Below, piece by piece: positions 1 through 62,979 of a stretch of DNA of 64,000 nt (its first letter is position 1; every line of letters starts with the position of its first letter). The translations under genes were made by a program, and so were the position numbers. The DNA is from a virus: the IMG/VR virus record IMGVR_UViG_3300009034_000013, positions 1 to 64,000 of that record. One strand, written 5' to 3'. Under the pieces are notes generated by a model, which searched no databases, was not told where the DNA came from, and saw only the letters and a program-made list of their open reading frames with translations.

Positions 1-311
1 AAGTTAGTAATGAAGTTAGTAATGAAGTTAGTGATAAAGTTAGGAATGTAGTTTGGAATGAAGTTAGTGATAAAGTTAGTAATGAAGTTAGTAATGAAGT
101 TAGGAATAAAGTTAGTGATAAAGTTAGTAATGAAGTTTGGAATGCAGTTAGGAATGAAGTTAGTGATAAAGTTTGGAATGAAGTTAGTAATGAAGTTAGT
201 AATGAAGTTAGTGATAAAGTTAGTAATGAAGTTAGGAATGAAGTTTGGAATGTAGTTAGTGATAAAGTTTGGAATGTAGTTAGTGATAAAGTTTGGAATG
301 TAGTTAGTAAT
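1..311 (+). repeat. 12-nt imperfect coding tandem repeat (AAGTTAGTAATG / AAGTTTGGAATG variants)
   Basis: About 26 consecutive 12-nt units are directly visible. Confidence 0.95.
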
Positions 312-998
312 GAGAAAAAATATTTAATTAATTTTATATATCCTTTTTTAGATGGCAATTTCAATTCATATTATTTTAGTTTTTATTCATTTTTTATTAA
401 TGAATGCAAAATTCAGATAACAAATAAATATTTTATATATGAAAAATTGTGTGATTATAGTCTTATCTATCCATTTAATAAAATTTGTTTTATTTCTGAA
501 AAACCAAATGAAATAAATTTAATCAATAATAAATTACATGCTGATTTAAAGCCAGCATTAAAATATTCTGATGGTTTTAGTATATATTCTTTAAACGGCA
601 CAATTATGCCCAAATGGATTGTTATGACAAAAAAAGAAGATATGAAAATAGAAGATATATTTAAATTAAAAAATATAGAACAGAGATTGGAAGCAATAAA
701 AAAAATGGGCGATTTATTTTTTGAGAAAATGAAATCTATGATTTATGATAAAAAAGAAATATATTTAGATGGCAATCAAAAAGTATATTTAAAAAATATA
801 GGAAATTTAAAAAAAGTAAATTATGAATTGTTAGGAATTAATATAAAAGATGTTGATAAAGAAATGAAAGTATTAAAAATGGAAAATCCATCAACAAATG
901 AAATTCATTATGAAATGGTAAATCCAGAATGTAAACAGATTTTAGATGCTTTTGAATTTAGAACAGGAATACGTAGTTTTCCTGCATATTTAAGTTAA
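3..998 (+). CDS. DUF6745-like protein with N-terminal tetrapeptide repeats (5'-truncated)
   Basis: Frame 3 is open from nt 3 into the 447..998 ORF. The 12-nt repeats encode (N/D)(E/K/V)V(S/W/R) and are followed by ICFISEKP...LHADLKPALKYSDGFSIYSLNG. Confidence 0.7.
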   Translation, partial: VSNEVSNEVSDKVRNVVWNEVSDKVSNEVSNEVRNKVSDKVSNEVWNAVRNEVSDKVWNEVSNEVSNEVSDKVSNEVRNEVWNVVSDKVWNVVSDKVWNVVSNEKKYLINFIYPFLDGNFNSYYFSFYSFFINECKIQITNKYFIYEKLCDYSLIYPFNKICFISEKPNEINLINNKLHADLKPALKYSDGFSIYSLNGTIMPKWIVMTKKEDMKIEDIFKLKNIEQRLEAIKKMGDLFFEKMKSMIYDKKEIYLDGNQKVYLKNIGNLKKVNYELLGINIKDVDKEMKVLKMENPSTNEIHYEMVNPECKQILDAFEFRTGIRSFPAYLS

Positions 999-11811: not shown

Positions 11812-13959
11812 GTGAGCACAAGAATAGCAAAATGGGAATCTAATACTCAGTTTGATTATAGTGGCCCAACAAAATCTGATGTTGAAATAGTTGGAACTGG
11901 TGATTCTGCTTATATTGCGTTAAAAGCAAAAGCAAATAATTCTGATGATGTCCCTTTTACAACACCTGCAAATTACATATATGATGGATCGAAAATAGAG
12001 GTATCGGGGGGTGTAGCTAAATTAAAAGCAACGGCAGCAGGAGATCAAAATTATCCTTTTACAGTACCAGCTAACTATACATATGATGGAGGAAAAATAG
12101 AAGTAACTGGTGGGGTTGCTAAATTAATTGGAACTCCTTTATTGCCTTATGGCTGGTGGCATTTAAACGAATTAAGCGGATCTAATGTTTCAGATAGTTC
12201 GAATAATGGTAGAGATGGAACTACTCAAAATATGGAAGATGGTGATTGGGTTGCTGGAAAATTAAATAATTGTTTACAGTTTGATGGTACAAACGAATAT
12301 GTGGATTTGGGGGATATTGCTGATTTTGCAAGAACACAACCTTTTTCAGTAGAATGTTGGATAAAAACTACAACAGCCGCAACTCAAATGATCGTATGTA
12401 GACAGAATACGGATGCAGTAAAAAGAGGTTGGAGTTTGTATATAAGGGAAGCAGCTGGTAATTTTAGAGCAGCTCTTGTATTATCAAGTAATATATCAAC
12501 AAGCACCTATGTTGCGGTTGAAAATAATTCAACAGATGTAAATGATGGAAATTGGCATCATATTTTTGCTACATATGATGGTAGTGGATTGGCTTCTGGT
12601 ATAACTGTATATGTTGATAATAATAGTTCAAATGTTACTATTCTTGATGCGTTGGGAGCCAATTCAATCAATATAGCAGTAAATTTAAATATTGCTGCAA
12701 GAAATGGAGATTCAGCTTTTTCATTTAATGGACAAATAGATGAAGTGGTTATTTATGATAGTGAAGTACCTGCAATTGATGTTGCTTTTCGTTATAATGC
12801 CAGTGTCGGCACAGAAGATATGTGGCTTGGTTATTCAAAAACTGATCCAGATATAGTTAATAATTCTGGATATGCTTTTTCAGTAAATTTGGATATATTT
12901 ACTGAAACTGCAACTAAACCAACTAACACGGGAATAAAATATCAAATATCTTCTGATAATGGTGTTACATGGAAGTGGTGGAATGGGGCTGTTTGGGTTG
13001 CTATAACAGGAGGGCAAACGGATAGCTGGTATTATTCTAATGAATCTAATATCGCAAGTATCATTAATACAAATATTACTAGTTTAGCGGCAAGTGGAAC
13101 ATTTAAATTTAGGGCTTTTTTACATACAGACACAGGGATAATTACTCCACAGCTTAATAATATATATATTGCGGAATCTGCTTCATATCCTATTGGTAGT
13201 TTTCCTATAGAAATGAACTGGGATATAGACCCAGTTCTTATTTTTGAATGGCTTATAGTAACTGAAACTTCAACTAAACCAGCTAATACAGATATAAAAT
13301 ATCAGTATTCAGTAAATAGTGGAGTAAGTTATAATGGAAGTTGGCTAACAAAAGATGAATTACAAATAGCTATACAAGGAATAGCATCTCCAGATAAATT
13401 AAGATTAAAAATACAATTAAGTACTTCAAATGGTATTGTTACCCCTGAAATTGATAATATAAATATTACAAGTGATACTGGATATGAGACAAGTGGTTAT
13501 TATGAGAGTACAGCTTATCAACCAGAAAATAATACTAATGGAGTGTATTTGGATAGTATAACTTTTGATGTTGTTATTCTATCTGGAACTACAATTAAAA
13601 TAGAAGTTCGGAATATTAATAATACTTTAGAAGATGGATATGTTGAATATAATTCTGGTGATGATATTCAATTGTGTGGTGATATAATTCAATTTAAAGC
13701 AACTTTTACGACTACTGGTCGTTATACTTCACGGCTTAATTATGTGTATATTGTTTTTCATACTTTGATTGGTGTAATGAGATCTATAGATGAAAATTCA
13801 GAATTTATAAAAGATATAGAAGGTGGGAAATGGGAAATAATTAATAATCAGATGATATTTTATAAATCTGATAATACCACTGAAGTAGCAAGATTTAATC
13901 TTTTTGACAAAAATGGAAATCCGTCTGAAATAGATTTGTATAAAAGAGAGCGTGTATGA
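11812..13959 (+). CDS. virion protein with LamG/concanavalin-like domain
   Basis: GWWHLNE...LQFDGTNEYVD...FSVECWIK...DGNWHHI...FNGQIDEVVIY; internal duplications PFTxPANYxYDGxKIEV and TETxTKPxNTxIKYQ. Confidence 0.85.
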   Translation: MSTRIAKWESNTQFDYSGPTKSDVEIVGTGDSAYIALKAKANNSDDVPFTTPANYIYDGSKIEVSGGVAKLKATAAGDQNYPFTVPANYTYDGGKIEVTGGVAKLIGTPLLPYGWWHLNELSGSNVSDSSNNGRDGTTQNMEDGDWVAGKLNNCLQFDGTNEYVDLGDIADFARTQPFSVECWIKTTTAATQMIVCRQNTDAVKRGWSLYIREAAGNFRAALVLSSNISTSTYVAVENNSTDVNDGNWHHIFATYDGSGLASGITVYVDNNSSNVTILDALGANSINIAVNLNIAARNGDSAFSFNGQIDEVVIYDSEVPAIDVAFRYNASVGTEDMWLGYSKTDPDIVNNSGYAFSVNLDIFTETATKPTNTGIKYQISSDNGVTWKWWNGAVWVAITGGQTDSWYYSNESNIASIINTNITSLAASGTFKFRAFLHTDTGIITPQLNNIYIAESASYPIGSFPIEMNWDIDPVLIFEWLIVTETSTKPANTDIKYQYSVNSGVSYNGSWLTKDELQIAIQGIASPDKLRLKIQLSTSNGIVTPEIDNINITSDTGYETSGYYESTAYQPENNTNGVYLDSITFDVVILSGTTIKIEVRNINNTLEDGYVEYNSGDDIQLCGDIIQFKATFTTTGRYTSRLNYVYIVFHTLIGVMRSIDENSEFIKDIEGGKWEIINNQMIFYKSDNTTEVARFNLFDKNGNPSEIDLYKRERV

Positions 13960-38020: not shown

Positions 38021-38875
38021 ATGAATAGAAAAGAATTAAATGAAATTTTAAAATCACATAAAATGTGGTTAAACAATTCTGTAAACGGAAAAAAAGCTGA
38101 TTTATCAAATGCTAATTTATATAAAGCTAATCTAACAGATGTTAATCTATCACATGCTAATTTATTAAAAACTAATTTATCCTATGCAAATCTAATAGAC
38201 ACTAATTTATCAGGGGCTAATTTATCAAATGCTAATTTATATAAAACTGATCTATTAAGAACTAATTTATATATACCTAATTTATATGAAGCTAATTTAA
38301 CAGATGCTAATTTATATAAAGCTAATTTATATAAAGCTAATTTATCAGGGGCTAATTTATATAAAGCTGATCTATCCTATACTAATCTAACAGATGCTAA
38401 TTTATCAAGAGCCAATCTAACAGATGCTAATTTATCAAGAGCCAATCTAACAGATGCTAATTTATCTGGATGTAAAGGATTATTAAATCCAAAAGATTGG
38501 ATGAACAATAATTTTAAAAAAACAGAAAAAGGATATATCGTATATAAAGCAATTGGAGAAACATATTATAAAACCCCTAAATATTGGGAAATAAAAGAAG
38601 ATTCATATATAGAAGAAATATGTAATCAAAATAGAACTAATCCTGACGGATGTGGTATTAATTTTGCAACTAAGGATCGAGTACAAAATGAATTTAAAAA
38701 TAAAAAATATGATTTATGGGAATGTTTATTAGAATGGGAAGATTTAATCAATGTTTGTGTTCCCTATAATACTGATGGGGTAATAAGATGCAGAAGATTA
38801 AAACTTTTAAAAATAATAAATAAAGAAAATGAAATTGTCATGGAAGATAAGGAGAGAAAATGTTACAACAAATAA
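38021..38875 (+). CDS. pentapeptide-repeat protein
   Basis: About 25 A(N/D)Lxx repeats; C-terminal GYIVYK...GCGINF...DGVIRC domain. Confidence 0.9.
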   Translation: MNRKELNEILKSHKMWLNNSVNGKKADLSNANLYKANLTDVNLSHANLLKTNLSYANLIDTNLSGANLSNANLYKTDLLRTNLYIPNLYEANLTDANLYKANLYKANLSGANLYKADLSYTNLTDANLSRANLTDANLSRANLTDANLSGCKGLLNPKDWMNNNFKKTEKGYIVYKAIGETYYKTPKYWEIKEDSYIEEICNQNRTNPDGCGINFATKDRVQNEFKNKKYDLWECLLEWEDLINVCVPYNTDGVIRCRRLKLLKIINKENEIVMEDKERKCYNK

Positions 38876-56979: not shown

Positions 56980-57206
56980 AAGAGGTAAAATAATGTTAAT
57001 TATAATTTTATTGTTGATAATAGTTTGTGTATTAATTGGATTATCAATATATATGAAATATATAGGGAGTAATATTTGGGGAATACCTGTTATTTATGCT
57101 GTGTTATTTTTTGCATTGGTAATGTTCTTTTATAATAGATCTTATCATCTATCGAAATATTCAGATAAAACAACAGAGGAAATATTTTATACATCAGGAA
57201 TAAAGA

Positions 57207-58823
57207 ATGAATAAAATAGTTAAATATGAGAATAAAGAATTGAAAATAAAATTTAATTCTGAAGATAAAACAGAATTTTATAATATTCTTAATAATGTAA
57301 AAACATTATATGGCAGACAATTTCATTCTAATTCAAGAACATGGATAGCTCCTCCTACAAAAGAAAATATAGAATCACTTGCAAAATTTGGTTTTGATAT
57401 GGATGAATCTGTATTTATACTTTTTGAAAAGAAAAAAGAAAAAGATTTTTCTAAAATAAAATTGAAAAAAAAATTATCAAAAGAATTTTATCCTTTTCAA
57501 ATAGATGGCATAAAGTTTTTGGAAAGTAGAAAAGGTAATGGATTGATAGCTGATGCTATGGGTTTGGGAAAAACAATACAGGTATTAGGTTATTTTATAA
57601 TCCATCCAGAATTAAAACCCGTTTTAATAGTTTGTCCTGCTTCTGTAAAATTGAATTGGAAAAGAGAGATTGAAAAATGGACAGATTATAAAGATGAAGA
57701 TGTAAATATTTTATCAGGGAAAACTCCTTATAATACTACATTATCTTGTTTTTATATTATTAATTATGATATTTTAGACAGTTGGAAAGAAGTTTTAATT
57801 GAGAAAAAGTTTGCTATAATACTGTCTGATGAATGTCAATATATTTCTAATGGTCGATCTTTGAGGACAGAAGCATTTAAAAAAATAGCAAGGAAAGTGG
57901 ATAAAAGAATATTTCTGTCAGGTACACCAATAAGAAATAGTCCAAGAGAATTCTTTACAGTTCTGAATCTTTTAAATAAAAAATGTTTTCCTAATGAGTA
58001 TAAATATCTATATAGATTTTGCAATCCTAAATATAATGGTTTTGGCTGGCAGTTTAAAGGGGTAACAAATTGGAAAGAATTACATAATATTATTCAACCT
58101 CTTATGATTAGAAGAGAGAAAAAAGAAGTACTAAAGGATTTACCAGAAAAACGAAAAATAGTTGTACCACTTGAATGTTCAAAATTAGAATATGAAAAAT
58201 ATTTGGATGCTATTGAGAATATAAAGGAATGGGCAGGTGAGGATGAAAAGAAAAGTATAGTTGAAATAAAAAATAGAATGGAATTTATTTCTGGTCTTGC
58301 TTATGGAGCAAAAAGGAATTCAGTTATAAGTTGGATTAAAGATTATATTTCTACTGGAGAAAAATTAGTTGTATTTGGATATCACATTAAAGTATTAGAT
58401 GATATTGAAGCCGCTTTTTCAAAAGTGAAGACTGTTAGAATAGATGGTAGTGTAAAATCTGATGATAGACAAGGATTAGTTGATCAATTTCAAAATGATT
58501 CAGAAACAAAATTATTCATAGGACAGATAAAAGCAGCTGGAATTGGTATAACTTTGACAGCTGCTTCTGCTACTTGTTTTTTGGAATTTTCATGGACACC
58601 AGCAGATCATGAGCAAGCTGAGGATAGAGTTCATAGAATTGGGCAAAAGGCAGATTCGGTATCTGCTTATTATTTGATTGGGGAAGGGACTCTGGAAAAA
58701 GATATTGTAAAATTATTGCAAAGTAAACATGATACAATTAGTAAAGTGATAGATGGAAAGGAGAATGAAAATTTTTTTAAAAAGGATATTTTAATTGAAA
58801 TATTTAATGGTTTGAAATTATAA
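57207..58823 (+). CDS. SNF2-family (SMARCAL1/HARP-like) helicase
   Basis: ADAMGLGKT, DECQ, LSGTPIRN, GITLT, QAEDRVHRIGQ. Confidence 0.95.
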   Translation: MNKIVKYENKELKIKFNSEDKTEFYNILNNVKTLYGRQFHSNSRTWIAPPTKENIESLAKFGFDMDESVFILFEKKKEKDFSKIKLKKKLSKEFYPFQIDGIKFLESRKGNGLIADAMGLGKTIQVLGYFIIHPELKPVLIVCPASVKLNWKREIEKWTDYKDEDVNILSGKTPYNTTLSCFYIINYDILDSWKEVLIEKKFAIILSDECQYISNGRSLRTEAFKKIARKVDKRIFLSGTPIRNSPREFFTVLNLLNKKCFPNEYKYLYRFCNPKYNGFGWQFKGVTNWKELHNIIQPLMIRREKKEVLKDLPEKRKIVVPLECSKLEYEKYLDAIENIKEWAGEDEKKSIVEIKNRMEFISGLAYGAKRNSVISWIKDYISTGEKLVVFGYHIKVLDDIEAAFSKVKTVRIDGSVKSDDRQGLVDQFQNDSETKLFIGQIKAAGIGITLTAASATCFLEFSWTPADHEQAEDRVHRIGQKADSVSAYYLIGEGTLEKDIVKLLQSKHDTISKVIDGKENENFFKKDILIEIFNGLKL

Positions 58824-58838
58824 TGTAAATAAGAATCT

Positions 58839-58946
58839 GATGAGTAGAGTAAACCAAAGATAAAGAATGAGTTATATAGTGAAAGTAAACCAATAAAAGA
58901 GAGCGAGCCAGGCCGAGTGAGTAAACCAGCGCATGAGAGCGTATTT
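58839..58946 (+). ncRNA. TIGR-like dual-repeat guide array 1 (3 units, 36-nt period)
   Basis: GAGTAAACCA-type repeats at 58847, 58883, 58919 alternate with GAGCGAGCCA-type repeats at 58865, 58901, 58937; unique 8-nt spacers. Confidence 0.85.
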
Positions 58947-58996
58947 TTGTAAATGATCATTATATAATGATTAAATAATTTTATAGGGGATATCCG

Positions 58997-59686
58997 ATGG
59001 ATACTACAAAAAAATTAAAAGTTGGGGAATTGATCCTTGACTGGAATTTATGGCCACGTTATAAGGTGGAATTTTTAGATTCTACGAATATAACAAGAAT
59101 GAAACAAGCTATAAAAGCTGGGTTGAAACTTCCGTCTATTATAGTTAATAAAGCTGATTATAGAATAATAGATGGTTTTCACAGAGTAAAAGTTTATAGA
59201 GATTTATTTGGTGAAGAGCATGATATCACTGTTAAATTGAGAGAATTTAAAAATGATGCAGAAATGTTTATGGAATCTGCCAGACTAAATTCTGTTCATG
59301 GATTACCTTTAAGCCCACAAGATAAAGCTCATGTGATTTTAAGAGCAAGACGATTTAAATATCCTTTTCCAGTTATTGCACAAATAATAGGAATGGATGA
59401 AGATACTTTAAAAAAGTTTTATAAATCAAGAATAGCAAAAACTAAAAAAGGAGAAACTTTAGTTTTGGCGAATGGTGCTTCTGATTTAAGTGATTTGGAT
59501 AGACCATTAACAAATAATGAAGAAATACATGCAAGATCGGCTAATGGATGTAAAGCTTCTGTTAATATAGCTTTATTGTTATATGCTTTAAAAGCTGATA
59601 ATGTTAAACTAACAGAAAAAACAGTGTCAAATCTTATACAACTGAAAGAAGAAATAATAAGGATTTTAAAAAAGGCAGGTGTATAA
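58997..59686 (+). CDS. ParB/Srx-like protein with C-terminal HTH
   Basis: LWPR, LPSIIV...IIDGFHR, LNSVHGLPLS; stop codon overlaps the next ATG. Confidence 0.85.
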   Translation: MDTTKKLKVGELILDWNLWPRYKVEFLDSTNITRMKQAIKAGLKLPSIIVNKADYRIIDGFHRVKVYRDLFGEEHDITVKLREFKNDAEMFMESARLNSVHGLPLSPQDKAHVILRARRFKYPFPVIAQIIGMDEDTLKKFYKSRIAKTKKGETLVLANGASDLSDLDRPLTNNEEIHARSANGCKASVNIALLLYALKADNVKLTEKTVSNLIQLKEEIIRILKKAGV

Positions 59687-60480
59687 TGTTAAAAGATAAA
59701 AAAGTTGAGAATTCACTGAAAATATTGATAAGACAATATTATGATTATAGTAATGAAAGAATAGCTATGGATGGAAGATTAGGAATTAAGAAAGATGGGG
59801 AATTAAAGAAGAAAACTCCTGATAGAGATGAAATAATGTTGGCTTATTTATACACAAGAAGAAAAGAAATAATAACTGTGGAGAAAGAAATTGAAAAAGA
59901 AATCAGAAAAGAAGTGAACATACATACTCTGTGGAAAGGATTTTTCGAAGATGTTATAGGAGTGGGCCCAATAATGGCAGCGGTAATTATCACTGAATTT
60001 GATATTAAAAAAGCTAATACAGTTTCAAAATTATGGGCTTTTGCAGGGATAAATCCTGGTATAGTATTTGGGAAAACTGGAAAACTTGGTAATATAAAAA
60101 CCTCTAATATTTTGATAAGACAAGATAAAAAAACAAAAGGATTTTTATGTCCATATAATCAGTTTTTAAAGTGTAGATTGTTAGGTGTTTTGGCAGGAAG
60201 TTTTTTAAAAGCATCATCCCCATATAGTAAGTTTTACTATGATTATCGTTTTAGATTGGTGTCCTTAACAGATGAGGAAAAAGAAAAAAGAGGATTATGT
60301 AAGTCAAAAAATCCAACCGATAAAAATAAACCATATGCTAGTCATATAAATAACAGAGCTAAAAGATATATGATAAAGATGTTTTTGAAAGATTTATATG
60401 TTGCGTGGAGGACGTTAGAAGGATTACCAGTTAGAGATCCATATGCTGATGAATATTTGAATAGAAAACATGCTGGATAA
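59686..60480 (+). CDS. Nop-domain (IS110 C-terminal-like) RNA-binding protein, TasA-like
   Basis: Coiled coil, VIGVGPIMAAVII, SKLWAFAG, YNQFLK, HINNRAKRYMIKMFL; no RuvC/DEDD or HNH domain; flanked by the arrays. Confidence 0.82.
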   Translation: MLKDKKVENSLKILIRQYYDYSNERIAMDGRLGIKKDGELKKKTPDRDEIMLAYLYTRRKEIITVEKEIEKEIRKEVNIHTLWKGFFEDVIGVGPIMAAVIITEFDIKKANTVSKLWAFAGINPGIVFGKTGKLGNIKTSNILIRQDKKTKGFLCPYNQFLKCRLLGVLAGSFLKASSPYSKFYYDYRFRLVSLTDEEKEKRGLCKSKNPTDKNKPYASHINNRAKRYMIKMFLKDLYVAWRTLEGLPVRDPYADEYLNRKHAG

Positions 60481-60482
60481 TT

Positions 60483-60600
60483 GAGCGAGCTACAAATAAG
60501 GAGTAAACCATTGTTCTTGAGCGAGCCAGGAGATTTGAGTAAACCAAGAAAATAGAGCGAGTCAAGGGAAGAGAGAAAACCATCTCTATAGAACGTATTA
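60483..60600 (+). ncRNA. TIGR-like dual-repeat guide array 2 (3 units, 36-nt period)
   Basis: GAGCGAGCCA-type repeats at 60483, 60519, 60555, 60591; GAGTAAACCA-type repeats at 60501, 60537, 60573; 8-nt spacers. Confidence 0.9.
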
Positions 60601-60690
60601 AAAAGGCAGGATAAAAAAACCATGCCTAATTTGAAAGTTTTTTTCAAATTTTGTGTTTAAATTATTATAATATAAGTATAGGGGAATAAA

Positions 60691-62535
60691 ATGTATGAAA
60701 TAATGAAATTATTTAAATCAGTATTAGTAAAACAGAAAAATGTTACAGGATCTCCTTATATTAGAAAAGGAATATTATATACTCCTGATGTTGGAAATGA
60801 ATATAAGGATATTGATTCTATAATAAATATGGCAGAAAAGATATTTTTACTTTCTGCAAAACAAATAAATAGTTCTTTTCATAAATCATGGCAGAAAATC
60901 AGAGATGTAAATATAGAACAGCTTGTATTAGAGCAAATTATCCATTATATAACTACATATGGTTTTGAATCTCTAAATATTTATAATAGCGAATCTGTAT
61001 ATATTCCAAGAGAGAAATTAGAATTACCAGAAATAGATATAGATAAAATTGAGTTGATTGTTATAAAAGGAATTACTAAAGAAGAATTAAAGGAAAAATT
61101 AATGAAAATGATGTGTTCTGGAATTGCTCTTGATGAAAATACTATTAAAGATATTGTAAATATTATTACTGATAATGATATTGGATTTGATAATGAAGAT
61201 GTTAGAAATATAAAAAATAAAGAAATAAAATCAATTATAATGGATAAATTAAGTTTAGTACCAGATGATCCAGTTGAATATTTGAGATATATTATTTATA
61301 AAATGACAGGTGAAACTTTGTTGATTAAAAATAAAGAGTTAATAGAAAAGATAAAAGAAAATCAGAAAATATTTTCTCTGTTAAAAATTGATGAACATAG
61401 TCAAAGAAAATTAGCCAGTATATTTTATCGATTCAAACCTTTATTTTTAGCAATGAAAGGAACCCCAACAACAAATAAAATAATAAATAGAATAAGAAAA
61501 TTAGCAAAGAAATATCATAGACCGATGAAACAAGATTATCTAAATAATATAACAAATCAAAAGTATATAGATATACTTTTTTTCAAGAAAGAACTTAATA
61601 AGGTTAATATTTTCAGAAAAATAAGATTAGCAAATGCTATAAAATATAGAATGTTAAATAGTGGTTCAATTGTATACAGAATAAGAAATGGAAAAAGTTA
61701 TTCTACAGAAAATAAAAAGAGAGATAAAGATTATTATGATAATATATATGAAATAATAGAAAAGAGTATAAAGGATGATATAAAAGAGATCATAGGAAAT
61801 AAGAAAATATATATACCAGATTATATAAAGTATACTTTACCATCTTCTGAAAAACAATTTTCTGATAATGTTCCATTAGGTACAAATATAACTGTGAAAG
61901 AGAATATGGTTTTTGGGGTGTACTGGAAGAATGTTGATAAAAATAGAATTGATTTGGATTTGTCTTTATTATCTGTTGATAGTAAATTTGGATGGGATGC
62001 AAGATATAGAAATGAAGAAAGAAGTATATTGTTTTCTGGGGATATGACAGATGCTTGTGATGGAGCTTCTGAATTATATTACATAGAAAAAAATAAACCC
62101 GGTATTTATTTAGTGATGTTAAATTATTATAATTATAATAAATACGAAGAAAAAGATATTCCAGTTCCTTTTAGAATATTTATTGCAGATGAAAAAATAA
62201 ATTTGATTGAAAAGAATTATATGGTTAATCCTGAAAATATATTGATAAATATAAATACTGAAATAAAAAGAAAACAGAAATTATTAGGATTAGTAAAAAT
62301 AGATGAAAATAAAAGTATATTTTATTTTTGTGAAACAAACATAGGAATGTCAATAACATCAAGTGATAATGAATATATGAAACATTGCAGAAATTATTTA
62401 AAAGATTTTTATAGTAATTTAATGAATTTAAATGATATGATAGGAGATGTAACTAAGAAAAATGAATGTGATATTGATTTATCACCTAAAAATCTAACAA
62501 AAGATAAATTATTGGATATTATAATAAAGACATAA
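60691..62535 (+). CDS. helical N-terminal + TerD-like C-terminal protein
   Basis: FGVYW...IDLDLS...GWD...FSGDMTDA.DGASE TerD-like motif; long helical, basic N-terminal region. Confidence 0.65.
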   Translation: MYEIMKLFKSVLVKQKNVTGSPYIRKGILYTPDVGNEYKDIDSIINMAEKIFLLSAKQINSSFHKSWQKIRDVNIEQLVLEQIIHYITTYGFESLNIYNSESVYIPREKLELPEIDIDKIELIVIKGITKEELKEKLMKMMCSGIALDENTIKDIVNIITDNDIGFDNEDVRNIKNKEIKSIIMDKLSLVPDDPVEYLRYIIYKMTGETLLIKNKELIEKIKENQKIFSLLKIDEHSQRKLASIFYRFKPLFLAMKGTPTTNKIINRIRKLAKKYHRPMKQDYLNNITNQKYIDILFFKKELNKVNIFRKIRLANAIKYRMLNSGSIVYRIRNGKSYSTENKKRDKDYYDNIYEIIEKSIKDDIKEIIGNKKIYIPDYIKYTLPSSEKQFSDNVPLGTNITVKENMVFGVYWKNVDKNRIDLDLSLLSVDSKFGWDARYRNEERSILFSGDMTDACDGASELYYIEKNKPGIYLVMLNYYNYNKYEEKDIPVPFRIFIADEKINLIEKNYMVNPENILININTEIKRKQKLLGLVKIDENKSIFYFCETNIGMSITSSDNEYMKHCRNYLKDFYSNLMNLNDMIGDVTKKNECDIDLSPKNLTKDKLLDIIIKT

Positions 62536-62789
62536 AAAGTTCCTATGAATAGATTATGGAGGAGAGATCCTCTATTAAATTACTTTTTGTCTTTAAAATA
62601 AAAGCATAGAAAGTTCCTATAAATAAAAAACTTGAAATTTTTTACTTTCTGTTTTTAATGATAAGTCAAAGAAAGTTCCTATAAATAAAAACTATGGGTG
62701 TTTACTTACTTTCCGACTTTTTTAGAAATTATTGGGATCAAAGGAAGTTCCTAAAAATTAAGACTGCAAATCTATTACTTCCCGATTCT
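62525..62789 (+). ncRNA. array of four covarying stem-loop units with conserved AAGTTCCTA...TTACTT core
   Basis: Units at 62525-95, 62599-657, 62663-719, 62734-789; compensatory changes in the stems. Confidence 0.8.
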
Positions 62790-62814
62790 TATTTAATAGT
62801 ATAGGAGAAAGAAT

Positions 62815-62979
62815 ATGACAATTAAACAAGTGACATTAAGAAGAGTTTTTAATTTAGGTAATTATGAAACTCTTCATATAGAATTACAAGCGGATATAGA
62901 TAAAAATGAAGATGTAAAAGAAGTATTGGACGATTTACATCAAGAAGCTAAAAAATATAAAAGATATACGAAATCTTAA
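62815..62979 (+). CDS. small conserved phage protein
   Basis: AGGAG RBS; FNLGNYET motif; below the ORF-track size cutoff. Confidence 0.65.
   Translation: MTIKQVTLRRVFNLGNYETLHIELQADIDKNEDVKEVLDDLHQEAKKYKRYTKS

What the first reader, a model, noticed from the sequence alone, without database searches (positions are those of the whole stretch)
58839..60600. RNA-guided TIGR-TasA-like locus: two 36-nt dual-repeat arrays flanking a ParB-like gene and a nuclease-less Nop-domain gene
Seen: two arrays with strict 36-nt periodicity. Two different 10-nt repeats (GAGCGAGCCA and GAGTAAACCA) alternate, separated by unique 8-nt spacers (possibly 9 nt if the first repeat base is variable). Array 1 spacer pairs are GATGAGTA/AAGATAAA, TATAGTGA/ATAAAAGA, GGCCGAGT/GCGCATGA. 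Array 2 pairs are CAAATAAG/TTGTTCTT, GGAGATTT/AGAAAATA, AGGGAAGA/TCTCTATA. Array 2 starts 2 nt after the stop of a 264-aa protein with IS110-C-terminal/Nop-fold motifs and no nuclease domain. Established: TIGR-Tas systems use 36-nt dual-spacer guides bound by Nop-domain Tas proteins, and TasA has no nuclease. Inference: this is a phage RNA-guided DNA-binding system with six guides.
Basis: partly seen in the sequence, partly recalled or inferred. Interest (0 to 1): 0.92.

Follow-up and report, generated by a model that had tools for sequence, protein, structure and literature searches.

The report
Phage TIGR guide arrays with TasA and TasParB
An uncultured 84-kb phage carries a small but well-formed TIGR-TasA system: six 36-nt two-part guide RNAs, a nuclease-free guide-binding protein and its ParB-like partner; this kind of system was published in 2025, so it is a good new example, not a new kind.

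Summary
Two 36-nt-periodic arrays (58829-58944 and 60483-60598) flank a two-gene operon. They alternate the edge repeat GAGCGAGCCA and the loop repeat GAGTAAACCA, separated by 8-nt unique spacers.

- **TasA (59686-60480).** The 264-aa protein passes NCBIfam "TIGR-Tas" above its cut-off. Its high-confidence model matches the solved TasR and TasH structures. It has no nuclease domain and keeps the Tyr/His residues that cut guide precursors.
- **TasParB (58997-59686).** The upstream gene has a ParB fold and the published DGFHR motif.
- **Relatives.** Every relative with enough flanking DNA carries the same repeats with different spacers: 437 units in 52 loci (the window among them), 434 distinct spacer pairs.
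- **Guide closure.** The two base pairs that close each guide covary across 554 units, and all six window units keep them.

This is the tasParB-tasA operon type of Faure et al. 2025, so it is a new member of a known kind. This scan had already found such loci on other DNA.

Two results are new here. None of 50 guides in three whole phage genomes matches its own genome. Spacer G+C follows the resident genome (r = 0.76). The targets, the host and the role of TasParB remain unknown.

The parts
58795..58824 (+). Promoter-like site, TTGAAA-18 nt-TATAAT (11 of 12 positions). It would start transcription about 58831, just before array 1.
   Evidence: best match in 57000-61000. Promoter-like sites as a class are not enriched there (23 found against 25.4 in shuffles), so this is a candidate only.
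58829..58944 (+). TIGR array 1: three 36-nt units plus a truncated terminal edge repeat (GAGCGTAT at 58937). Predicted tigRNAs are 58834-58869, 58870-58905 and 58906-58941. Spacer pairs are GATGAGTA/AAGATAAA, TATAGTGA/ATAAAAGA and GGCCGAGT/GCGCATGA.
   Evidence: The edge repeats of units 1 and 2 are degenerate, yet both handle base pairs are kept (U:A and A:U; U.G and G:C).
58997..59686 (+). tasParB: a 229-aa protein of the ParB/Srx fold with the motif DGFHR (residues 59-63). Its stop codon overlaps the tasA start by one base (TAATG).
   Evidence: phrog_1033, E 8.6e-13. Model pLDDT 96.8. Foldseek top matches are ParB-CDP 6sdk, pNOB8 ParB-N, Noc and KorB. G60 and R63 are invariant; D59 and H62 are kept in at least 90% of 44 relatives. 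The published TasParB motif is DGFHR.
59686..60480 (+). tasA: a 264-aa nuclease-free TIGR-associated protein. Coiled-coil hairpin at residues 2-78, then the Nop domain, then a C-terminal loop carrying Y253 and H262.
   Evidence: NCBIfam NF052498, 135.6 bits (cut-off 100). PDB sequence matches to TasR 9mty (7e-10) and TasH (6e-8). Model pLDDT 91.1, pTM 0.86. Foldseek matches to TasR and TasH with TM 0.63-0.68.
60483..60598 (+). TIGR array 2: three 36-nt units plus a truncated terminal edge repeat (GAACGTAT at 60591). Predicted tigRNAs are 60488-60523, 60524-60559 and 60560-60595. Spacer pairs are CAAATAAG/TTGTTCTT, GGAGATTT/AGAAAATA and AGGGAAGA/TCTCTATA.
   Evidence: In unit 2.3 the handle pair C8:G3 is replaced by U8:A3, a change on both sides.
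60604..60650 (+). Two hairpins followed by a U-rich run: the likely end of the transcription unit. A promoter-like site for the next gene follows at 60643-60671.
   Evidence: -12.6 kcal/mol, z -2.34. for the promoter-like site. The strict terminator scan did not list it.

Best explanation
This is a dual-repeat TIGR-TasA system with the accessory protein TasParB, carried in the replication-gene region of an uncultured, AT-rich (26% G+C) phage of 83.8 kb.

**Proposed mechanism, step by step.**
1. One rightward transcript (candidate promoter at 58795-58824, hairpins after 60604) carries array 1, tasParB, tasA and array 2. This is inferred.
2. A TasA dimer binds each unit through the shared box D (GAG, at the repeat start) and box C (CCA, at the repeat end). 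This is inferred from homology and repeat anatomy.
3. TasA cuts inside the edge repeats, about GAGCG|AGCCA, using the Tyr253/His262 loop. This would give up to six 36-nt tigRNAs of the form AGCCA-spacer A-loop repeat-spacer B-GAGCG. The ends are closed by two base pairs (positions 7:4 and 8:3). The residues and the pairs are shown here by conservation and covariation; the cutting itself is inferred from SpTasH.
4. Each ribonucleoprotein then binds a 16-bp DNA site. Spacer A pairs with one strand and spacer B with the other, so one strand reads [spacer A][reverse complement of spacer B]. This is inferred from the published TasR, TasH and PlTasA structures.
5. With no nuclease, the outcome is binding. 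The most likely effect is a roadblock or transcriptional repression, as shown in 2026 for the stem-loop MbTasA.
6. TasParB, translationally coupled to TasA, probably acts at the RNA-specified site. What it does there is unknown.

**Targets.** The targets are not in the phage's own genome. They are therefore probably host DNA or competing mobile elements of similar base composition.
For: **Protein identity.**
- NCBIfam NF052498 is matched above its cut-off.
- The sequence matches solved TasR and TasH chains.
- The model (pLDDT 91) has TasR, TasH and then IS621 as its top structural matches.

**Processing dyad.** SpTasH R286, Y289 and E292 align with R250, Y253 and E256. Y253 is invariant and H262 is kept in at least 90% of 35 relatives. 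The catalytic roles of Y289 and H296 come from PMC13421893.

**Arrays.**
- The spacing is exactly 36 nt.
- All 17 IMG/VR TasA loci have period-36 arrays beside the gene, with the same repeats and other spacers.
- Spacer columns carry about 0 bits of information, and there are 434 distinct pairs among 437 units.
- Units occur only on the tasA strand in the 73 ParB-query loci (motif counts).

**Handle pairs.** Pair 8:3 is Watson-Crick or wobble in 534 of 554 units, with 29 U:A double changes. Pair 7:4 is paired in 516 of 554, with 24 A:U. No within-locus shuffle out of 1000 reaches either value. All six window units keep both pairs.

**TasParB.**
- It has the ParB fold and the DGFHR motif.
- The 10 closest full-length ParB relatives all have tasA directly downstream plus arrays.
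- In the quick TasA tree, the window's nearest rows all carry ParB.

**Literature.** 36-nt tigRNAs bound by TasA, and the tasParB operons, are in PMC12045711. TasA as a repressor is in bioRxiv 10.64898/2026.09.09.750476.

**Not self-directed.** None of 50 guides in three whole phage genomes has a perfect self match. Only one has a 1-mismatch match in the published geometry. Mismatch distributions equal those of shuffled spacers, in four orders and with gaps of 0-12.
Against: - No RNA or binding data exist for this locus.
- The arrays are very short (3 + 3 units against the usual 5-15).
- Two edge repeats of array 1 have lost box C (CCA has become TTA or TCT), and unit 1.1 scores within the range of shuffled sequence.
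- The promoter is only a consensus match in AT-rich DNA.
- No target was found for any guide, and the host is unknown.
- Repression was shown for a stem-loop TasA (MbTasA), not for a TasParB-linked dual-repeat TasA.
- The published multimer model found only weak TasA-TasParB contact.
Confidence: 0.88

Rival explanations
1. The locus is a decaying remnant. The genes and a few repeat units persist, but the system no longer makes working guides.
For: Only six units exist in the whole genome. The edge repeats of units 1.1 and 1.2 are degenerate, and 60483 and 60555 each carry one change in box C. Guide 1.3 is GC-rich (11 of 16) in a 26% G+C phage, as if inherited from another genome.
Against: - Both genes are intact, and every family-invariant residue is present.
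- Both models fold with high confidence.
- The genes remain translationally coupled.
- The degenerate units keep both handle pairs through changes on both sides, which suggests selection on the RNA.
- TCA and CTA box C variants are common in long arrays of relatives.
Confidence: 0.07
2. The guides act on the phage's own DNA. They would mark a partition or centromere-like site for TasParB, or regulate the phage's own promoters.
For: - ParB proteins normally act on sites in their own replicon.
- Spacer G+C follows the resident genome (r = 0.76).
- Five of the six window guides have the phage's own composition.
- Guide 2.1 has a 1-mismatch match at genome position 79342, minus strand.
Against: - No perfect self match exists for any of 50 guides in three whole genomes.
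- Mismatch distributions are like those of shuffled spacers in every order and gap tried.
- The single 1-mismatch hit is equalled by 7 of 200 shuffles for that guide, so it is not significant across six guides.
- That hit lies inside a predicted 135-aa gene, not at a promoter.
Confidence: 0.04
3. The repeats work as DNA, as iterons or binding sites for the ParB-like protein, and are not transcribed guides.
For: They flank a ParB-like gene. No RNA evidence is available for this phage (one search listed no run).
Against: - Units lie on one strand only, the tasA strand, in all loci scored for strand.
- Many relatives have arrays with TasA but no ParB.
- The trans pairs between successive edge repeats covary as RNA pairs, including G.U.
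- Homologous arrays are shown experimentally to give 36-nt RNAs (PMC12045711).
Confidence: 0.01

Closest known systems
[quoted passage not shown]
   Same: - Gene order is ParB-like gene, then tasA.
- Arrays lie upstream and downstream.
- Repeats are 10 nt.
- TasParB carries the DGFHR motif.
- TasA is nuclease-free.
- The setting is a phage.
   Different: - The guide set is very small (3 + 3 units) and there is no array between the genes.
- It sits in the most AT-rich genome of all loci compared (27% against 28-63%).
- ParB identity to the nearest relative found is 62% and TasA identity is 54-59%.
FpTIGR-TasA of Flavonifractor plautii (dual-repeat TasA shown to bind 36-nt tigRNAs; PMC12045711)
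   Same: A solo coiled-coil plus Nop protein, with a dual-repeat 36-nt unit.
   Different: FpTIGR has 9 + 9 nt of spacer against 8 + 8 here. No ParB partner is reported for it. I did not compare the sequences directly.
SpTIGR-TasH of Salicola phage CGphi29 (PDB 9w03, 9w04, 21kl; PMC13421893)
   Same: - Spacers are 8 nt and the tigRNA is 36 nt.
- The Nop fold is shared (TM 0.65-0.68).
- The Tyr/His processing loop aligns.
- tblastn identity is 31.5% over the Nop part.
   Different: TasH has an N-terminal HNH nuclease and cuts DNA. The window protein has no such domain.
MbTasA and PlTasA (stem-loop TasA proteins; bioRxiv 10.64898/2026.09.09.750476 and 10.64898/2026.08.11.744272)
   Same: Nuclease-free TasA proteins that bind DNA under RNA guidance. 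MbTasA represses transcription reversibly.
   Different: Their guides are hairpin-framed, and they lack the Tyr/His processing loop that this protein keeps.
IS110/IS621 bridge-RNA recombinases (PDB 8wt6, 8wt9)
   Same: The RNA-binding Nop-like domain is shared (Foldseek E about 1e-3; weak Pfam Transposase_20 hit).
   Different: There is no DEDD/RuvC-like catalytic domain. The NCBIfam IS110 model scores 24 bits against a cut-off of 140.

Membership tests
TIGR-Tas system (dual-repeat type) | A Tas protein with a coiled-coil dimerisation hairpin followed by a Nop RNA-binding domain | tested here: met
   NF052498 scores 135.6 bits against a cut-off of 100, over profile positions 1-215 of 215. The model has helices 2-32 and 49-78, then the Nop domain. 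Foldseek top matches are TasR 9mty and TasH 9w04, 9w03 and 21kl.
TIGR-Tas system (dual-repeat type) | An array of two distinct alternating short repeats (edge and loop) with two short spacers per unit, 36 nt in all | tested here: met
   Edge repeat of 10 nt, spacer of 8, loop repeat of 10, spacer of 8. Spacing is exactly 36 nt in both arrays.
TIGR-Tas system (dual-repeat type) | Edge and loop repeats share box D at the start and box C (CCA) at the end. The loop repeat is A-rich in the middle. The edge repeat has one extra base pair. | tested here: met
   The repeats are GAG-CGAG-CCA and GAG-TAAA-CCA. Loop pair 3:8 is G:C in 530 of 554 units. Edge trans pairs 8:3 and 7:4 are paired in 96% and 93% of units and covary. 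The description of the feature comes from PMC12045711.
TIGR-Tas system (dual-repeat type) | Spacers differ between units and between related loci, while the repeats stay the same | tested here: met
   434 distinct spacer pairs among 437 unique units in 52 loci. None is shared with the window.
TIGR-Tas system (dual-repeat type) | A Tyr/His dyad on the C-terminal loop of the Nop domain that matures the guides (dual-repeat systems only) | tested here: met
   Y253 aligns with SpTasH Y289 and is invariant. H262 is kept in at least 90% of relatives. H262 lies two residues beyond the ungapped position of H296, so the His assignment rests on conservation.
TIGR-Tas system (dual-repeat type) | [quoted passage not shown] | tested here: met
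   The terminal repeats are GAGCGTAT (58937) and GAACGTAT (60591). Relatives likewise keep only GAGCG. Hairpins and a U-rich run follow array 2. After array 1 there is only an AT-rich palindrome that folds no better than shuffled sequence (z -0.25).
TIGR-Tas system (dual-repeat type) | 36-nt RNAs are made from the array and bound by the Tas protein, which then binds DNA matching both spacers | not testable with these tools
   No sequencing run could be listed for this phage. This needs small-RNA sequencing after pull-down, and EMSA.
TasA subtype | No nuclease domain (no HNH, no RuvC) before the coiled coil | tested here: met
   The protein is 264 aa and the first helix starts at residue 2. Residues 65-123 align with TasR 153-212, so nothing corresponds to the RuvC part. 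The ORF starts at the ParB stop codon.
TasParB | A ParB/Srx-fold protein with the conserved motif DGFHR, encoded directly upstream of tasA in one operon | tested here: met
   Foldseek matches ParB-CDP 6sdk at 5.9e-7, plus pNOB8 ParB-N, Noc and KorB. D59, G60, F61, H62 and R63 are present; G60 and R63 are invariant. The stop and start codons overlap as TAATG.
Canonical ParB CTPase of ParABS partition systems | The GERRxR CTP-binding motif, a parS site on the same replicon and a ParA partner | tested here: not met
   The motif position reads DGFHR, not GERRxR. Pfam ParB models give no match. No self-directed guide or site was found. I did not search for ParA.
IS110-family RNA-guided transposase | An N-terminal DEDD/RuvC-like catalytic domain as well as the RNA-binding domain | tested here: not met
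   NF033542 scores 24 bits against a cut-off of 140, matching only profile positions 173-262. Pfam Transposase_20 scores 18.6 bits, below its cut-off of 21.3.

The most novel reading that the evidence does not exclude
TasA-tigRNA would work as an RNA-programmed loader for TasParB. The guide picks a 16-bp site on foreign DNA (host or rival element). The DGFHR ParB-like protein then clamps, spreads or chemically acts there. This would be an RNA-addressed version of ParB, KorB or Noc-type silencing or DNA marking, and would explain why the two genes are translationally coupled in a whole clade and why no guide matches the phage itself.
Probability: 0.25. Interest if true: 0.8.

Novelty: new member of a known kind. 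Interest (0 to 1): 0.3.

Why it matters
TIGR-Tas systems are compact, PAM-free RNA-guided DNA binders of current interest as tools. Their natural targets and the role of the ParB-like partner are still open. In the library searched, only the 2025 paper mentions TasParB.

This locus adds nothing new in kind, but it is a convenient test case:
- the phage genome appears to be whole;
- only six guides exist in the whole genome;
- both genes are intact, in 1.9 kb that could be cloned as one piece.

Two results here narrow the question. Guides of TasParB-linked systems do not match their own phage, in three whole genomes. Their base composition follows that of the resident genome. Both point to host DNA or to co-resident mobile elements as the targets.

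Tried and rejected

- Tandem Repeats Finder did not list the arrays, so I used a period-36 self-match instead.
- Pfam has no match for the ParB-like protein or its 44 relatives. PADLOC has no match for either protein. Rfam has no match in 58600-62900.
- Sequencing runs: none was listed, and no RNA holder was listed.

**Host not identified.**
- The genome has no tRNA genes.
- The isolated phages nearest by the SNF2 helicase are below 37% identity and come from unrelated hosts.
- TasA relatives in genome bins lie in MAGs of many phyla.

**Target search.**
- Own genome: no match with 1 mismatch or fewer except guide 2.1, which is not significant.
- Other orders and gaps of 0-12 gave no signal.
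- Guide 1.3, read as [A][rc B] = GGCCGAGTTCATGCGC, has at least 119 exact hits in IMG/VR against 6 for the other order. The hits lie in many unrelated genes of GC-rich phages and read Ala-Glu-Phe-Met-Arg in preferred codons. My rough estimate from codon usage gives a similar number. I rejected it as a specific target.
- Guide 2.3 has 23 hits against 17, which is background.

**Other checks.**
- A third period-36 peak at about 61690 is A-rich coding sequence.
- The stem-loop units at 62535-62790 have no box C or box D pattern by eye.
- The arrays themselves fold no better than shuffled sequence, as expected for dual-repeat guides.
- Tree caveats: only the quick tree finished. Support for the window's clade is 80-90 SH-aLRT, which is not strong. 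Rows L019 and L020 are wrongly labelled 'noParB' there, because their genes overlap (one search shows ParB ends where tasA starts). Hits aligned over fewer than 200 aa and duplicate sequences were left out.
Full report
**What is there**

The window is the first 64 kb of an 83,839-bp virus record with 26% G+C. At 57-64 kb all genes run rightward and belong to the replication set:
- a sigma-like protein, a primase, and an SNF2 helicase at 57207-58823;
- then the locus in question;
- then a 614-aa protein of unknown kind and a DnaB-like helicase.

The locus reads as follows: a promoter-like site at 58795-58824, array 1 at 58829-58944, a 229-aa gene at 58997-59686, a 264-aa gene at 59686-60480 whose ATG overlaps the previous stop codon, array 2 at 60483-60598, and two hairpins with a U-rich run at 60604-60650.

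**The observation**

Each array stacks in a strict 36-nt register: 10-nt edge repeat, 8-nt spacer A, 10-nt loop repeat, 8-nt spacer B.
- The loop repeat occurs at 58847, 58883, 58919 and at 60501, 60537, 60573.
- The edge repeat occurs at 58901 and at 60483, 60519, 60555.
- The period-36 self-match is about 4 sd above the window mean at both places.
- A template scan of the whole genome finds these six units and nothing else above background.

Array 1 is partly worn. Its first two edge repeats are degenerate, and unit 1.1 is marginal by sequence alone. Both arrays end in a truncated edge repeat that keeps only GA(G/A)CG. The same is true of the array ends I read in relatives.

**The proteins**

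*The 264-aa protein.*
- It passes NCBI's curated TIGR-Tas model: 135.6 bits against a cut-off of 100, over the full profile.
- It matches the sequences of solved TasR (9mty, 7e-10) and TasH (6e-8).
- A model built on 35 relatives has pLDDT 91 and pTM 0.86. It consists of a two-helix coiled-coil hairpin starting at residue 2, followed by a helical domain.
- Foldseek against the PDB returns TasR and TasH chains as the ten best matches (probability 1.00, TM 0.63-0.68), then IS621-type recombinases.
- Nothing precedes the coiled coil, so it is the nuclease-free TasA form.
- SpTasH matures its guides with Y289 and H296 (PMC13421893). Y289 aligns with Y253, which is invariant. A nearly invariant H262 follows on the same C-terminal loop. 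According to the 2026 survey, this dyad marks dual-repeat systems.

*The 229-aa protein.*
- It matches a phage ParB-like family (phrog_1033, 8.6e-13) but no Pfam model.
- Its model (pLDDT 96.8) matches ParB-CDP, pNOB8 ParB-N, Noc, Myxococcus ParB-CTPγS and KorB.
- Where canonical ParB has GERRxR, it has DGFHR. G60 and R63 are invariant; D59 and H62 are nearly so.
- DGFHR is exactly the motif given for TasParB in the supplement of Faure et al., where it is likened to DndB.

**Relatives**

- TasA has 542 relatives at E ≤ 0.001 in the clustered protein collection, the best at 57% identity.
- All 17 IMG/VR loci found with TasA carry period-36 arrays beside the gene, with the same repeats and other spacers.
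- Of 73 IMG/VR loci found with the ParB-like protein, the 10 closest full-length ones have tasA directly downstream plus arrays. Two have ParB and arrays but no tasA within 3.5 kb. The distant ones have neither.
- Across 52 loci I collected 437 unique units. The spacer columns carry no information, and 434 spacer pairs are distinct. None is shared with the window.
- In a quick TasA tree the window groups with L018, L021, L030 and L031, all ParB-linked, with weak to moderate support.

**RNA-level constraint**

In the solved TasR complex the two ends of a processed guide meet and form two base pairs. Here those pairs join positions 7 and 8 of one edge repeat to positions 4 and 3 of the next.
- Over 554 units in 49 loci they are paired in 93% and 96% of cases, with 24 and 29 double changes.
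- No within-locus shuffle out of 1000 reaches the observed counts.
- Neighbouring positions 9:2 and 6:5 are not paired.
- All six window units keep both pairs. Unit 2.3 has U:A in place of C:G. Worn unit 1.1 has U:A and A:U.

This favours a transcribed, selected RNA over a DNA-level repeat, and argues against a dead locus.

**Targets**

An 8-nt 3' overhang is reported for TasR. From it I derive that one strand of the target reads [spacer A][reverse complement of spacer B].
- I tested this order and the other order, as a control, on the whole genome. There is no perfect match. There is one 1-mismatch match, for guide 2.1, inside a gene; that level is reached by 7 of 200 shuffles.
- I then fetched two complete relatives with 17 and 27 guides. 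Again there is no match with 1 mismatch or fewer, and the mismatch distributions equal those of shuffled spacers. This holds for four orders and for gaps of 0-12.
- So these guides are not aimed at their own phage.
- Spacer G+C follows locus G+C (r = 0.76, n = 44). Five of the six window guides are as AT-rich as the phage.
- Guide 1.3 is the exception (11 of 16 G+C). Its many IMG/VR hits are a codon-usage effect in GC-rich phages.
- The host could not be identified.

**Comparison with what is known**

Faure et al. 2025 define TIGR arrays, TasA, TasH and TasR, and the 36-nt tigRNA. They describe tasParB-tasA operons with dual-repeat arrays upstream, downstream or between the genes. Xu et al. 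2026 show that a TasA represses transcription under RNA guidance.

The window's locus meets every sequence-level criterion of this type. What remains untested is the biochemistry.

This scan had already met TIGR-TasA loci on other DNA, one of them with TasParB.

**Verdict**

This is a new member of a known kind, with modest interest.

Noticed in passing
window 1-313 and genome 83234-83839 (L109 19234-19839): Both ends of the 83.8-kb record lie in the same 12-nt tandem repeat (AAGTTAGTAATG, about 75 copies in all). One reading frame runs from L109 19020, through V(S/W/R)N(E/V) tetrapeptide repeats and across the junction, to window 998. The record therefore appears to be circularly closed or terminally redundant, and the assembly breaks inside a gene with about 300 aa of 4-residue repeats.
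   Followed up: partly
window 62535-62790: Four stem-loop units with a conserved TCCTA(T/A)(A/G)AAT segment start at the stop codon of the 614-aa gene, directly downstream of the TIGR locus (noted before as e1-6106077). They show no CCA...GAG box pattern by eye, and the 614-aa protein has no relative in the TasA or ParB loci I held. They seem unrelated to the TIGR system.
   Followed up: partly
window 58901-58936 (guide 1.3): This spacer pair is GC-rich (11 of 16) in a 26% G+C phage. Joined as [A][rc B] it reads like in-frame high-GC coding DNA (Ala-Glu-Phe-Met-Arg), with at least 119 exact IMG/VR hits against 6 for the other order. This may be a leftover from a GC-richer donor of the module, or chance.
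   Followed up: partly
L026 1620-2600 and L027 3501-4470: A TasParB relative (42% identity) is followed directly by a canonical array of at least six units, but no tasA lies within 3.5 kb downstream. tasA may sit elsewhere on these 35-kb contigs or be lost.
   Followed up: no
G003 (record of L030) 13722-13886: This complete 54.9-kb phage has a satellite array of five units about 10 kb from its main tasParB-tasA locus, on the same strand.
   Followed up: no
L025 1812-1900, L018 4975-5050, L010 3931-4000: Neighbouring units within one array are near-copies of each other, with the same spacer pair or one to three changes. This suggests that new guides arise by unit duplication followed by mutation.
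   Followed up: no
window 38068-38509: A repeat region of period 15/30/45 nt reads as (A/S)NL-type pentapeptide repeats (GCTAATTTA...).
   Followed up: no
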